From the NCBI RefSeq assembly GCF_002854065.1, contig NZ_CP024147.1: a stretch of DNA of 64,000 nt. One strand, 5' to 3'. The notes below the pieces were generated by a model. It ran no database searches. It was not told the origin of the DNA and saw only the letters and a program-made list of their open reading frames with translations. This DNA is from Escherichia coli (GTDB lineage: Bacteria > Pseudomonadota > Gammaproteobacteria > Enterobacterales > Enterobacteriaceae). The translations under genes were made by a program, and so were the position numbers. Shown piece after piece: positions 44,715-46,607 of this stretch. Positions within the stretch are counted from its first letter, which is position 1; each line of letters begins with the position of its first letter.

Positions 44715-46607
44715 ATGGCTATCGAAATCAAAGTACCGGACATCGGGGCTGATGAAGTTGAAATCACCGAGATCCTGGTCAAAGTGGGCGACAAAGTTGA
44801 AGCCGAACAGTCGCTGATCACCGTAGAAGGCGACAAAGCCTCTATGGAAGTTCCATCTCCGCAGGCGGGTATCGTTAAAGAGATCAAAGTCTCTGTTGGC
44901 GATAAAACCCAGACCGGCGCACTGATTATGATTTTCGATTCCGCCGACGGTGCAGCAGACGCTGCACCTGCTCAGGCAGAAGAGAAGAAAGAAGCAGCTC
45001 CGGCAGCAGCACCCGCGGCTGCGGCGGCAAAAGACGTTAACGTTCCTGATATCGGCAGCGACGAAGTTGAAGTGACCGAAATCCTGGTGAAAGTTGGCGA
45101 CAAAGTTGAAGCTGAGCAGTCGCTGATCACCGTAGAAGGCGATAAAGCTTCTATGGAAGTTCCGGCTCCGTTTGCAGGCACCGTGAAAGAAATCAAAGTG
45201 AACACCGGCGACAAAGTGTCTACCGGCTCGCTGATTATGGTCTTCGAAGTCGCGGGTGAAGCAGGCGCGGCAGCTCCGGCGGCTAAACAGGAAGCGGCTC
45301 CGGCAGCGGCCCCTGCACCTGCAACTGGCGTGAAAGAAGTTAACGTTCCGGATATCGGCGGTGACGAAGTTGAAGTGACCGAAGTGATGGTGAAAGTGGG
45401 CGACAAAGTTGCCGCTGAACAGTCACTGATCACCGTAGAAGGCGATAAAGCTTCTATGGAAGTTCCGGCTCCGTTTGCAGGCGTCGTGAAGGAACTGAAA
45501 GTCAACGTTGGCGATAAAGTGAAAACTGGCTCGCTGATTATGATCTTCGAAGTTGAAGGCGCAGCGCCTGCGGCAGCTCCTGCGAAACAGGAAGCAGCAG
45601 CGCCGGCTCCGGCAGCAAAAGCTGAAGCCCCGGCAGCAGCTCCGGCTGCGAAAGCGGAAGGCAAATCTGAATTTGCTGAAAATGACGCTTACGTTCACGC
45701 GACTCCGCTGATCCGCCGTCTGGCACGCGAGTTTGGCGTTAACCTTGCGAAAGTGAAGGGCACTGGCCGTAAAGGTCGTATCCTGCGCGAAGACGTTCAG
45801 GCTTACGTGAAAGAAGCTATCAAACGTGCAGAAGCAGCTCCGGCAGCGACTGGCGGCGGTATCCCAGGCATGCTGCCGTGGCCGAAGGTGGACTTCAGCA
45901 AGTTTGGTGAAATCGAAGAAGTGGAACTGGGCCGCATCCAGAAAATCTCTGGTGCGAACCTGAGCCGTAACTGGGTAATGATCCCGCATGTTACTCACTT
46001 CGACAAAACCGATATCACCGAGCTGGAAGCGTTCCGTAAACAGCAGAACGAAGAAGCGGCGAAACGTAAGCTGGATGTGAAGATCACCCCGGTTGTCTTC
46101 ATCATGAAAGCCGTTGCTGCAGCTCTTGAGCAGATGCCTCGCTTCAACAGTTCGCTGTCGGAAGACGGTCAGCGTCTGACCCTGAAGAAATACATCAACA
46201 TCGGTGTGGCGGTGGATACCCCGAACGGTCTGGTTGTTCCGGTATTCAAAGACGTCAACAAGAAAGGCATCATCGAACTGTCTCGCGAGCTGATGACTAT
46301 TTCTAAGAAAGCGCGTGACGGTAAGCTGACTGCGGGCGAAATGCAGGGCGGTTGCTTCACCATCTCCAGCATCGGCGGCCTGGGTACTACCCACTTCGCG
46401 CCGATTGTGAACGCGCCGGAAGTGGCTATCCTCGGCGTTTCCAAGTCCGCGATGGAGCCGGTGTGGAATGGTAAAGAGTTCGTGCCGCGTCTGATGCTGC
46501 CGATTTCTCTCTCCTTCGACCACCGCGTGATCGACGGTGCTGATGGTGCCCGTTTCATTACCATCATTAACAACACGCTGTCTGACATTCGCCGTCTGGT
46601 GATGTAA
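44715..46607 (+). CDS. aceF: pyruvate dehydrogenase E2 dihydrolipoamide acetyltransferase
   Basis: 630-aa [52 protein letters not shown]... with three lipoyl domains, Ala/Pro linkers, an E3-binding domain and a catalytic domain. Confidence 0.98.
44718..45585 (+). repeat. three tandem ~300-bp in-frame repeats encoding the AceF lipoyl domains
   Basis: Near-identical ggcgacaaagttga[ag]gc[ct]ga[ag]cagtcgctgatcaccgtagaaggcga[ct]aaagc[ct]tctatggaagttcc at about 44797, 45104 and 45406; the reverse-frame track ORF 44972..45664 shows the same periodicity. Confidence 0.9.

What the first reader, a model, noticed from the sequence alone, without database searches (positions are those of the whole stretch)
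44718..45585. Near-identical tandem triplication at the DNA level inside aceF
Three units of about 300 bp encoding the lipoyl domains are so similar at the nucleotide level that the reverse strand shows the same repeating peptide pattern (track ORF 44972..45664). Such direct repeats are substrates for recombinational expansion or contraction, so lipoyl-domain number may vary between strains.
Basis: partly seen in the sequence, partly recalled or inferred. Interest (0 to 1): 0.3.

Follow-up and report, generated by a model that had tools for sequence, protein, structure and literature searches.

The report
Three lipoyl-domain repeats in aceF
This is the long-known threefold repeat at the start of the E. 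coli aceF gene (three lipoyl "swinging-arm" domains of pyruvate dehydrogenase); the copies are only 72-85% alike in DNA, not near-identical, and about 99.8% of complete E. coli genomes give the three-copy signal, with rare two-, one- and four-copy variants in public assemblies.

Summary
The repeat is real. Window 44715-45629 holds three tandem units (309, 303 and 303 nt) at the 5' end of aceF (44715-46607, +). Each unit encodes a lipoyl domain plus an Ala/Pro linker.

"Near-identical" is wrong. Lipoyl-core DNA identity is 74/74/85%, about the same as protein identity (76/72/83%). The longest exact shared runs are 26, 20 and 57 nt. The reverse-strand ORF is a compositional by-product.

Across 62 Enterobacterales loci, lip1 is an old, separate lineage. 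lip2 and lip3 are intermixed and more alike at silent sites within a genome than between genomes, which points to gene conversion.

The copy-number idea is partly right:
- Of 5423 complete E. coli genomes with aceF, 5413 carry one full lip2-lip3 junction and 5421 one full lip1-lip2 junction. None has either junction twice.
- Four genomes lack the lip2-lip3 junction. Two of these are verified 529-aa two-domain alleles. Two genomes lack the lip1-lip2 junction (unverified).
- Predicted in-register hybrids (529, 527 and 426 aa) and four-domain forms (731-733 aa) exist in public assemblies. Where mapped, their junctions lie in or beside the shared tracts.
- Assembly artefacts cannot be excluded for the drafts.
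- Some genera (Yersinia, Erwinia) carry two domains.

This is textbook biology, so interest is low.

The parts
44715..46607 (+). aceF CDS (630 aa plus stop), the E2p dihydrolipoyllysine-residue acetyltransferase of the pyruvate dehydrogenase complex
   Evidence: ORF. Pfam 3x PF00364 + PF02817 + PF00198. NCBIfam equivalog NF008814, 1101.5 bits against a cut-off of 722. Full-length match to PDB 7b9k. Flanked by aceE (42037-44700) and lpd (46752-48239), with a pdhR-like ORF at 41079-41876. Homologous E. coli loci are annotated aceE-aceF-lpdA.
44715..45023 (+). Repeat unit 1 (309 nt): lipoyl domain 1 (44715-44948, lipoyl-lysine codon K41 at 44835-44837) plus Ala/Pro linker 1 (44949-45023)
   Evidence: Protein and codon alignment of the units. 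Lipoyl HMM hit at aa 1-78.
45024..45326 (+). Repeat unit 2 (303 nt): lipoyl domain 2 (45024-45257, K144 at 45144-45146) plus linker 2 (45258-45326). In this window it is a minority allele (V164T, A204T).
   Evidence: Allele comparison. Only 17 of 5423 genomes are >=99% identical over 44600-45800.
45327..45629 (+). Repeat unit 3 (303 nt): lipoyl domain 3 (45327-45560, K245 at 45447-45449) plus the first part of linker 3
   Evidence: PDB 1qjo and 2k7v (innermost lipoyl domain) match aa 206-284 and 206-293. K245 is named as the lipoyl-lysine in PMC8421416.
45123..45179 (+). 57-nt tract of unit 2 that is exactly identical to 45426-45482 in unit 3. It encodes [19 protein letters not shown] around the lipoyl-lysine and is the longest exact homology between any two units.
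   Evidence: A perfect 303-nt duplication whose junction falls in this tract is found on the same haplotype in GCA_000627435.1.
45426..45482 (+). Partner copy in unit 3 of the 57-nt exact tract
44808..44833 (+). 26-nt tract of unit 1 that is exactly identical to 45117-45142 in unit 2 (encodes QSLITVEGD)
   Evidence: In the typical allele the corresponding tract is 29 nt. One mapped 527-aa deletion junction lies inside it and two lie directly after it. The hybrid domains of the 733-aa forms also switch near here.
45561..45692 (+). Linker 3 (Ala/Pro/Lys/Glu-rich) with short internal repeats (12 nt x2 at 45561-45584; 33 nt x2.2 at 45590-45660), ahead of the E3-binding domain (aa 327-362, 45693-45800)
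   Evidence: Linker-length polymorphism in other E. coli.
44972..45664 (-). Antisense 230-aa ORF. It is not a gene but a compositional by-product of the sense sequence.
   Evidence: No Pfam hit. Two of the three antisense frames have a single stop over about 960 nt, and the sense protein has no Tyr or His before residue 326. The same relative frame is stop-free for a median of 270 codons in 64 Enterobacterales loci.

Best explanation
The flagged stretch is the 5' third of aceF, which encodes the E2 core subunit of the pyruvate dehydrogenase complex. It codes for three tandem lipoyl domains. Each domain carries one lipoyl-lysine in a DKA turn, and the domains are joined by flexible Ala/Pro linkers. 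From established knowledge of E2p, these domains act as swinging arms that carry acetyl groups between the E1, E2 and E3 active sites.

Shown here:
- The triplication is ancient. lip1 is a separate lineage throughout the Enterobacterales, and its DNA similarity to lip2 and lip3 is close to what protein constraint plus codon bias would give.
- lip2 and lip3 are much more alike, and they are more alike within a genome than between genomes.

Inferred: lip2 and lip3 are partly homogenised by occasional gene conversion.

Shown: the units share only short exact tracts (26 nt for lip1/lip2, 57 nt for lip2/lip3 in this allele) around the conserved lipoyl-lysine motif.

Inferred from hybrid-domain alleles found in public assemblies: these tracts allow rare in-register unequal recombination or slippage that removes or adds one whole unit.

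Inferred from about 99.8% of complete E. coli genomes giving the three-unit signal, together with the published growth cost of fewer domains: selection keeps three.
For: Identity:
- Domain architecture, equivalog HMM match, solved-structure match and operon context all fit aceF.

Repeat anatomy and divergence:
- Described.
- Same codon given same residue is 0.64 and 0.68 for lip1 against lip2 and lip3, and 0.85 for lip2 against lip3. The expectation from the operon's codon usage is 0.53-0.54. P<1e-5 only for lip2-lip3.

Comparison across 62 three-domain Enterobacterales loci:
- Mean DNA identity is 73%, 72% and 85.5%.
- Within-genome lip2-lip3 third-position identity is 0.673, against 0.584 between genomes. 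The excess is positive in 61 of 62 genomes.
- The control excess for lip1-lip2 is 0.023; paired Wilcoxon P=5e-9.
- In a neighbour-joining tree lip1 is monophyletic while lip2 and lip3 are fully intermixed.
- Mixta tenebrionis carries the same odd 18-nt tandem insert in both lip2 and lip3.

Copy-number variants:
- Seven of 70 complete loci have two domains and one has a single lip1/lip3 hybrid.
- The E. coli complete genomes Rb-50 and C4 carry a 1590-nt, 529-aa aceF.
- Predicted hybrid proteins are present by exact look-up: 529 aa on 182 contigs, 527 aa on 454, 426 aa on 38.
- These alleles sit on different haplotypes, and mapped junctions lie in or directly beside the longest exact tracts.
- Four-domain alleles have hybrid middle domains. 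One of them is not a perfect duplicate: the N-halves are 97% identical.

Stability:
- The junction probes hit exactly once in 5419 and 5421 of 5426 complete genomes, and never twice (with controls).

Literature:
- The E. coli domains are 73% identical (PMC8421416).
- AceF domain loss in Serratia symbiotica (PMC5013485).
- Guest 1985, Machado 1992 and Dave 1995 were seen only as titles in reference lists.
Against: - A conversion tract in the window itself cannot be demonstrated. Where the window's lip2/linker2 differs from typical E. coli, 8 sites move towards lip3 and 5 move away, which is not significant.
- The within-versus-between contrast does not fully correct for shared ancestry or for genome-specific codon usage. 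Only the lip1 control addresses this.
- Many draft and metagenome copy-number variants could be assembler errors. The exact tracts (29-57 nt) are as long as common de Bruijn k values, and several ENA entries are plain inter-species chimeras joined at the conserved tract.
- No four-domain allele is present among 5426 complete E. coli genomes.
- No reads were inspected.
Confidence: 0.88

Rival explanations
1. This is an ancient triplication with no DNA exchange. All similarity between units would come from protein constraint plus codon bias, and the repeat would be genetically inert.
For: For lip1 against lip2 or lip3 this fits. Same-codon frequency is 0.64-0.68 against 0.54 expected. lip1 is monophyletic. 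The within-genome excess is only 0.02. Exact runs are 20-26 nt.
Against: For lip2-lip3 it fails:
- Same-codon frequency is 0.85 against 0.53 expected, P<1e-5.
- Within-genome silent identity exceeds between-genome identity in 61 of 62 genomes, and lip2 and lip3 are intermixed in the tree.
- An 18-nt tandem insert is shared by lip2 and lip3 of Mixta tenebrionis.
- In-register hybrid alleles occur in complete genomes.
Confidence: 0.1
2. The 2-, 1- and 4-domain E. coli and Salmonella alleles in databases are mostly assembly artefacts: de Bruijn graph loops or skips at the exact shared tract, or strain or species mixtures. On this view true strains essentially always have three domains.
For: - ENA entries P0002, P0007, P0015, P0024, P0027, P0034 and P0040 are inter-species chimeras joined in the conserved tract, and P0018 mixes two alleles.
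- Many carriers are SPAdes or MEGAHIT metagenome contigs.
- Mapped junctions lie in or beside tracts of 29-57 nt, and most duplicates are perfect.
- No four-domain allele occurs in 5426 complete genomes.
Against: - The 529-aa allele is in two RefSeq complete chromosomes on different haplotypes, 59 differences in 4590 nt. It is also listed in 434 blocks of the collection, 10 of them with contigs over 1 Mb.
- Four-domain alleles occur in the complete Salmonella chromosomes CP006575 and CP075029.
- In GCA_019368795.1 the duplicated halves differ (97% identity), which a graph loop would not produce.
- Yersinia (both sampled species), some Erwinia species and a symbiont carry fewer domains (PMC5013485).
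Confidence: 0.25
3. The reverse-strand ORF 44972-45664 is a real overlapping gene encoding a repetitive protein.
For: It is a 230-codon open frame with an internal repeat.
Against: - It has no Pfam match.
- Its openness is explained by the sense composition. A stop in that frame needs a sense Tyr codon, or a His/Gln codon after a T-ending codon, and there is no Tyr or His before residue 326.
- Stop-free run length in the same frame varies from 107 to 319 codons among 64 relatives, so it is not conserved as an ORF.
- Similar long antisense ORFs cover aceE and the 3' part of aceF.
Confidence: 0.01

Closest known systems
E. coli K-12 AceF (E2p, 630 aa; PDB 7b9k full length, 1qjo/2k7v lipoyl domain, 4n72 catalytic core)
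   Same: Same gene, length, domain order and operon. The protein differs from the commonest E. coli allele at two residues only.
   Different: The window carries a minority lip2/linker2 allele (V164T, A204T; 9-11 silent or replacement differences in 234 nt). Its exact lip2/lip3 tract is 57 nt, against 36 nt in the typical allele.
Engineered E. coli E2p chains with one, two or up to nine lipoyl domains (Guest et al. 1985; Machado et al. 1992; Dave et al. 1995). The titles were seen in reference lists; their content is known to me from memory and from PMC5013485 and PMC10579247.
   Same: In-register hybrid lipoyl domains: the natural 426-aa allele is a lip1N/lip3C hybrid like the '1-lip' construct. 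One domain is sufficient for activity, and fewer domains lower growth.
   Different: Those chains were made in vitro. The alleles found here occur in natural isolates and assemblies and have not been validated at read level.
AceF with fewer lipoyl domains in other Enterobacterales and symbionts (Yersinia, Erwinia, Pantoea sp. A4, Brenneria sp., Buttiauxella agrestis, Symbiopectobacterium; Serratia symbiotica in PMC5013485)
   Same: Same gene, with a contracted repeat array. In several of them a retained domain reads as a hybrid of neighbouring units.
   Different: These are species-level states, not within-species polymorphism. The window itself has the standard three.

Membership tests
AceF / E2p dihydrolipoyllysine-residue acetyltransferase (NCBIfam NF008814, TIGR01348) | Whole-protein match to the curated equivalog model above its cut-off | tested here: met
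   NF008814 scores 1101.5 bits (cut-off 722) over residues 1-630. TIGR01348 scores 1038.6 bits (cut-off 552.1).
AceF / E2p dihydrolipoyllysine-residue acetyltransferase (NCBIfam NF008814, TIGR01348) | Domain order: lipoyl domain(s), then peripheral-subunit-binding domain, then catalytic acyltransferase domain | tested here: met
   PF00364 x3, PF02817 at 327-362 and PF00198 at 399-629.
AceF / E2p dihydrolipoyllysine-residue acetyltransferase (NCBIfam NF008814, TIGR01348) | A lipoyl-lysine in a DKA turn in every lipoyl domain | tested here: met
   DKA at residues 40-42, 143-145 and 244-246. K245 is the lipoyl-lysine in the cryo-EM paper PMC8421416.
AceF / E2p dihydrolipoyllysine-residue acetyltransferase (NCBIfam NF008814, TIGR01348) | Operon context aceE-aceF-lpd | tested here: met
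   An 887-aa ORF ends at 44700 and a lpd-like ORF starts at 46752. RefSeq annotation of homologous loci reads aceE, aceF, lpdA.
AceF / E2p dihydrolipoyllysine-residue acetyltransferase (NCBIfam NF008814, TIGR01348) | Lipoylation and acetyltransferase activity | not testable with these tools
   Inferred from near-identity to the experimentally studied E. coli protein (PDB 7b9k).
Tandem paralogous units under concerted evolution (gene conversion) | Paralogues within a genome are more alike at silent sites than the same paralogues compared between genomes | tested here: met
   lip2-lip3: 0.673 within against 0.584 between, with 61 of 62 genomes positive. The lip1 controls show an excess of only +0.02. 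The comparison is not corrected for phylogeny.
Tandem paralogous units under concerted evolution (gene conversion) | Positional orthologues do not form separate clades | tested here: met
   In the neighbour-joining tree lip2 and lip3 are fully intermixed (the MRCA clade holds all 124 sequences). lip1 is monophyletic, so this feature is not met for lip1.
Tandem paralogous units under concerted evolution (gene conversion) | A demonstrable conversion tract in the window itself | tested here: inconclusive
   A 57-nt exact tract is present, but the polarised differences split 8 towards lip3 and 5 away from it.
   72-80% identity over whole units and 74-85% over the cores.
   Of 5423 complete E. coli genomes with aceF, 4 lack the lip2-lip3 junction, 2 lack the lip1-lip2 junction, 6 match the lip2-lip3 probe only partially, and none has either junction twice (controls).
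   Alleles of 529, 527, 426, 731 and 733 aa were found. Read-level validation was not possible.

The most novel reading that the evidence does not exclude
The aceF lipoyl array may be a naturally polymorphic, recombination-active locus.
- In-register loss and gain of whole lipoyl domains would recur independently on different E. coli and Salmonella haplotypes, at roughly 0.1% of genomes.
- lip2 and lip3 would be kept partly homogenised by gene conversion across the Enterobacterales, while lip1 escapes.

I found no description of this within-species polymorphism or of the lip2/lip3 concerted evolution in the searchable literature. That library lacks most of the older subscription papers.
Probability: 0.55. 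Interest if true: 0.3.

Novelty: already known. Interest (0 to 1): 0.15.

Why it matters
The feature itself is textbook biochemistry, so confirming it adds little. Three modest points follow from the follow-up.

1. Natural two-, one- and four-domain aceF alleles, if real, are ready-made material for the old question of why E. coli keeps three lipoyl domains when one suffices for activity.
2. The conserved tract around the lipoyl-lysine is a place where assemblers join different strains or species. Unusual AceF lengths in databases therefore need checking against reads.
3. Coverage-based BLAST summaries can hide the loss of one unit in a diverged tandem repeat, as happened here before the control.

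Tried and rejected
1. I first read ('5422 of 5423 genomes have a place covering >=80% of the query') as proof that all but one genome keep three units. The control showed that two-domain genomes pass this threshold, because the alignment runs on through the neighbouring unit. I replaced that inference with junction probes that were checked on known 2- and 4-domain loci.
2. I tested whether the window's divergent lip2/linker2 allele is a recent conversion from lip3. The sites split 8 to 5, which is not significant, so I dropped the idea.
3. BLAST mapping of junctions in two-domain species against three-domain congeners was ambiguous. I replaced it with position-specific profile scoring, which has only three lip2/lip3 diagnostic columns, so hybrid calls for those species are tentative.
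4. Literature searches for natural aceF domain polymorphism, gene conversion or duplication returned nothing relevant beyond the Serratia symbiotica paper.
5. I could not list the individual complete genomes that lack a junction probe, because the search tool shows only the best or evenly spaced rows. The counts 4 and 2 are therefore upper bounds for in-register two-domain alleles. Only Rb-50 and C4 were verified.
6. A first attempt to extract domains using envelope rather than alignment coordinates mis-registered them. This was corrected.
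Full report
**What is there.** The window section 41-48 kb carries, on the + strand, a pdhR-like ORF (41079-41876), an 887-aa ORF (42037-44700), a 630-aa ORF (44715-46607) and a lpd-like ORF (46752-48239).

The 630-aa protein is AceF, the E2p core of the pyruvate dehydrogenase complex:
- It has three Pfam Biotin_lipoyl stretches, an E3_binding domain (327-362) and a 2-oxoacid_dh catalytic domain (399-629).
- It matches the NCBIfam aceF equivalog NF008814 at 1101.5 bits, against a cut-off of 722.
- It matches the full-length E. coli E2p chain 7b9k over residues 1-630.
- The DNA is E. coli. Window 44600-45800 is 100% identical to strain 100416 and 95-99% identical to 5393 other complete genomes, where the feature is annotated aceF.

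**Checking the observation.**
- Tandem Repeats Finder gives period 303, 2.7 copies, 79% matches, score 985 at 44736-45553.
- The repeat finder gives three 248-nt copies spaced 309 and 303 nt.
- The units are aa 1-103, 104-204 and 205-305, that is 44715-45023, 45024-45326 and 45327-45629. Each is a 78-residue lipoyl domain with a DKA lipoyl-lysine motif (K41, K144, K245) followed by an Ala/Pro linker.
- A codon-level alignment gives whole-unit DNA identities of 72%, 71% and 80%.
- For the lipoyl cores, DNA identity is 74%, 74% and 85%, against protein identity of 76%, 72% and 83%. Third-position identity is 54%, 55% and 74%.
- The longest exact in-register runs are 26 nt (lip1/lip2, 44808/45117), 20 nt (lip1/lip3) and 57 nt (lip2/lip3, 45123/45426).
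- Chance identity is about 0.26-0.28, with a maximum of 0.41.

So the repeat is real and at the stated coordinates, but 'near-identical' is an overstatement.

**How much of the similarity is DNA-level?** I took codon usage from aceE, the non-repeated part of aceF, and lpd. From that, two identical residues are expected to use the same codon 0.53-0.54 of the time. The observed values are 0.64 (lip1/lip2, P=0.056), 0.68 (lip1/lip3, P=0.017) and 0.85 (lip2/lip3, P<1e-5). lip1 therefore resembles the others little more than protein constraint and codon bias require. lip2 and lip3 share real extra DNA similarity.

**The reverse-strand ORF.** ORF 44972-45664 (-) exists and its translation repeats: two roughly 76-residue copies, 64 of 76 identical by direct reading. 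It has no Pfam match.

Two of the three antisense frames have a single stop across about 960 nt. A stop in that frame needs a sense Tyr codon, or a His/Gln codon after a T-ending codon, and AceF has no Tyr or His before residue 326. In 64 related loci the same relative frame is stop-free for 107-319 codons, median 270. It is a compositional by-product, like the long antisense ORFs over aceE and the aceF 3' part seen.

**Comparison across Enterobacterales.** I scanned one genome per species with the non-repeated C-terminal 311 residues as query. This returned 80 loci, of which 70 contained the complete 5' end.
- 62 had three lipoyl domains.
- 7 had two: two Yersinia, two Erwinia, Pantoea sp. 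A4, Brenneria sp. hezel4-2-4 and Buttiauxella agrestis ATCC 33320.
- Candidatus Symbiopectobacterium had one.
- Mixta tenebrionis was set aside as atypical.
- The single Symbiopectobacterium domain reads as lip1 at its N-terminal end and lip2/3 at its C-terminal end. Several first or second domains of two-domain species also look hybrid. These calls rest on few diagnostic columns.

In the 62 three-domain loci, mean core DNA identity is 73% (1v2), 72% (1v3) and 85.5% (2v3), so the window is typical.

**Evidence for exchange between lip2 and lip3.**
- Third-position identity of lip2 against lip3 is 0.673 within genomes and 0.584 between genomes. That is higher even than orthologous lip2-lip2 (0.597) or lip3-lip3 (0.640) between genomes.
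- Against genomes of other genera the excess is 0.090 and positive in 61 of 62 genomes. The lip1-lip2 and lip1-lip3 controls, which absorb genome-specific codon usage, give 0.023 and 0.020 (paired Wilcoxon P=5e-9 and 3e-9).
- In a neighbour-joining tree lip1 is monophyletic, whereas lip2 and lip3 are completely intermixed. For five lip2 and three lip3 sequences the nearest neighbour is the other domain of the same genome.
- Mixta tenebrionis has the same 18-nt unit AAAGTCAGCACCGGCGAT repeated 5.8 times in lip2 and 4.8 times in lip3.

Together these indicate occasional gene conversion, or repeated loss and re-duplication, between lip2 and lip3 but not lip1. This is an inference. The statistics are not tree-aware.

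**Does copy number vary between E. coli strains?** My first reading (5422 of 5423 genomes with >=80% coverage) was misleading. A local control showed that genomes lacking a unit still give overlapping alignments that pass the threshold.

I therefore used two 200-nt junction probes from a typical allele: lip2 C-half + linker2 + lip3 start, and lip1 C-half + linker1 + lip2 start. On known loci the probes behave as follows:
- A lip2/lip3 two-domain locus gives no hit with the first probe.
- A lip1/lip2 two-domain locus gives no hit with the second probe.
- A four-domain locus gives two hits with the corresponding probe.

Against 5426 complete genomes:
- The first probe hit exactly once in 5419 genomes, 5413 of them at >=80% coverage.
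- The second probe hit exactly once in 5421 genomes.
- No genome had two hits with either probe.

Relative to the 5423 genomes that contain the region, at most 4 lack the lip2-lip3 junction and at most 2 lack the lip1-lip2 junction. Six match the first probe only partially. No complete genome has four domains.

Verified variants in complete genomes:
- Strain Rb-50 (NZ_AP025682.1) and strain C4 (NZ_CP010121.1) both have a 1590-nt aceF encoding the 529-aa WP_032220595.1.
- Strain 463 (NZ_CP183105.1) has a 192-nt in-frame but out-of-register deletion. It joins the VGDKV motif in the C-half of lip2 to the VGDKV motif in the N-half of lip3.

**Variants in the wider public collections.** A protein search listed AceF of 723-738 aa first. 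Their sequences show four lipoyl domains, one of them a hybrid:
- P0001 (E. coli, 733 aa) is lip1, lip2N/lip1C, lip2, lip3.
- P0003, P0005, P0012 and P0014 (E. coli, 727-731 aa) are lip1, lip2, lip3N/lip2C, lip3.
- Comparable forms occur in the Salmonella complete chromosomes CP006575 and CP075029.

P0003 carries the window's own allele. Its locus in GCA_000627435.1 has 0 differences from the window in 3000 nt of flank and 1 difference in the CDS. The only other change is a perfect 303-nt duplication whose junction lies in the 57-nt tract.

I then built the in-register deletion products expected from exchange in the conserved tract and looked them up by exact sequence. All exist:
- 529 aa (lip2N/lip3C) on 182 contigs, plus a second junction class on 34 contigs.
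- 527 aa (lip1N/lip2C) on 454 contigs.
- 426 aa (one domain, lip1N/lip3C) on 38 contigs.
- For scale, the window's own 630-aa allele is on 245 contigs.

The 529-aa loci lie on different haplotypes, with 49-75 differences in 4590 nt. Junction mapping against the typical allele:
- 529-aa loci: three junctions fall in the 36-nt tract (CDS 430-465) and one in the adjacent 14-nt tract.
- 527-aa loci: one junction falls in the 29-nt tract (CDS 91-119) and two fall directly after it.

The two assemblies carrying P0001 differ at 81 of 3400 nt. In one of them the duplicated N-halves are only 97% identical.

**Caveat on artefacts.**
- Several ENA entries (P0002, P0007, P0015, P0024, P0027, P0034, P0040) are obvious chimeras of E. 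coli and another enterobacterium joined in the conserved tract. P0018 strings two alleles together.
- Many carriers are metagenome contigs.
- An exact repeat of 29-57 nt is long enough to create a loop in a de Bruijn graph, so skipped or doubled units can be produced by assembly.
- Pointing to real events: occurrence in complete chromosomes, on several haplotypes, across pipelines, one imperfect duplicate, and reduced domain number in whole species.
- No reads were examined, so I give about one chance in four that most within-species variants are artefacts.

**Mechanism.**
- Established for E2p: the lipoyl domains are lipoylated on the DKA lysine and swing between E1, E2 and E3 (PMC8421416, PMC6270654).
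- Shown here: the anatomy of the repeat, its divergence, the lip1 versus lip2/lip3 asymmetry, and the location of variant junctions.
- Inferred: rare in-register unequal recombination or slippage at the short exact tracts, occasional lip2/lip3 conversion, and purifying selection for three domains.
- Published background: Dave et al. 1995 report that lowering lipoyl-domain content reduces growth rate and yield, and Machado et al. 1992 report functional chains with up to nine domains. I saw only the titles.

**Comparison with what is known, and novelty.** The 'repeating' or 'tandemly repeated' lipoyl domains of E. coli aceF are named in titles from 1985 and 1989 (reference lists). Their 73% protein identity is stated in PMC8421416. 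A species-dependent number of one to three domains is standard. Loss of one or two domains in Serratia symbiotica is published.

The finding is therefore already known. I did not find the rare within-species alleles or the lip2/lip3 concerted evolution in the searchable literature, but that library lacks most of the older subscription papers.

**Verdict.** Novelty: already known. Interest is low.

Noticed in passing
L001 2616-4316 (E. coli strain 463, NZ_CP183105.1); equivalent window positions about 45204 and 45396: aceF is 1701 nt because of a 192-nt in-frame but out-of-register deletion. It joins the GTNGGNGACAAAGT (VGDKV) motif in the C-half of lip2 to the same motif in the N-half of lip3. 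The result is an abnormal fused domain with two lipoyl-lysine motifs.
   Followed up: partly
window 45047-45324: The window's lip2 plus linker2 is a minority allele (V164T, A204T). It has 9-11 differences in 234 nt from typical E. coli, while lip1 and lip3 differ by only 1-2. Only 17 of 5423 complete genomes are >=99% identical over 44600-45800. The allele lengthens the exact lip2/lip3 tract from 36 to 57 nt. Its origin (conversion or import) is unresolved.
   Followed up: partly
L084 1342-3211 (E. coli AB_24_S34, NZ_CM185171.1): 31 complete E. coli genomes are only 80-90% identical over lip1 C-half, linker1 and lip2 N-half. In the example examined, 45 of 57 differences fall in lip1, linker1 and lip2. 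The encoded segment ([29 protein letters not shown]...) resembles the lip1 consensus of the other Enterobacterales rather than the typical E. coli allele, which suggests an imported allelic segment.
   Followed up: partly
L015 2401-2505 and 2779-2864 (Mixta tenebrionis): The same 18-nt unit AAAGTCAGCACCGGCGAT (encoding KVSTGD) is tandemly repeated 5.8 times inside lip2 and 4.8 times inside lip3. This inserts a repeated hexapeptide into both domains.
   Followed up: partly
window 45561-45584 and 45590-45660; L002, L003: The linkers carry short repeats (12 nt x2, 33 nt x2.2), and linker length is polymorphic in E. coli. Strain E70 has +9 nt in linker1, strain J3 has -12 nt in linker3, and P0018 has +7 residues in linker3.
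   Followed up: partly
proteins P0002, P0007, P0015, P0024, P0027, P0034, P0040, P0018: AceF entries from ENA assemblies are chimeras of E. coli with another enterobacterial allele (or of two E. coli alleles), joined in the conserved lipoyl tract. AceF length variants in databases should be treated with caution.
   Followed up: partly
proteins P0037 (680 aa) and P0039 (668 aa): Other in-frame internal duplications occur in E. coli AceF: a 50-residue duplication inside the E3-binding region, and a 38-residue out-of-register duplication inside lip2.
   Followed up: no
window 48310-50163 (-): The 617-aa ORF downstream of lpd has its own internal repeats (several copies of a ...SASPEQRQ...QRREAARERIQ-like motif) and a His/Asp-rich stretch. 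It was seen in the ORF list only.
   Followed up: no
window 42286-44559 (-) and 45423-46652 (-): Very long antisense ORFs (757 and 409 aa) lie opposite aceE and the 3' part of aceF. They are presumably compositional, like the one in the finding.
   Followed up: no
L050 versus L058 (both labelled Buttiauxella agrestis ATCC 33320): One assembly has two lipoyl domains and the other (flagged UNVERIFIED_ORG) has three. They are only about 97% identical over the first 566 nt of aceF, so they are probably different organisms rather than one strain with two states.
   Followed up: partly
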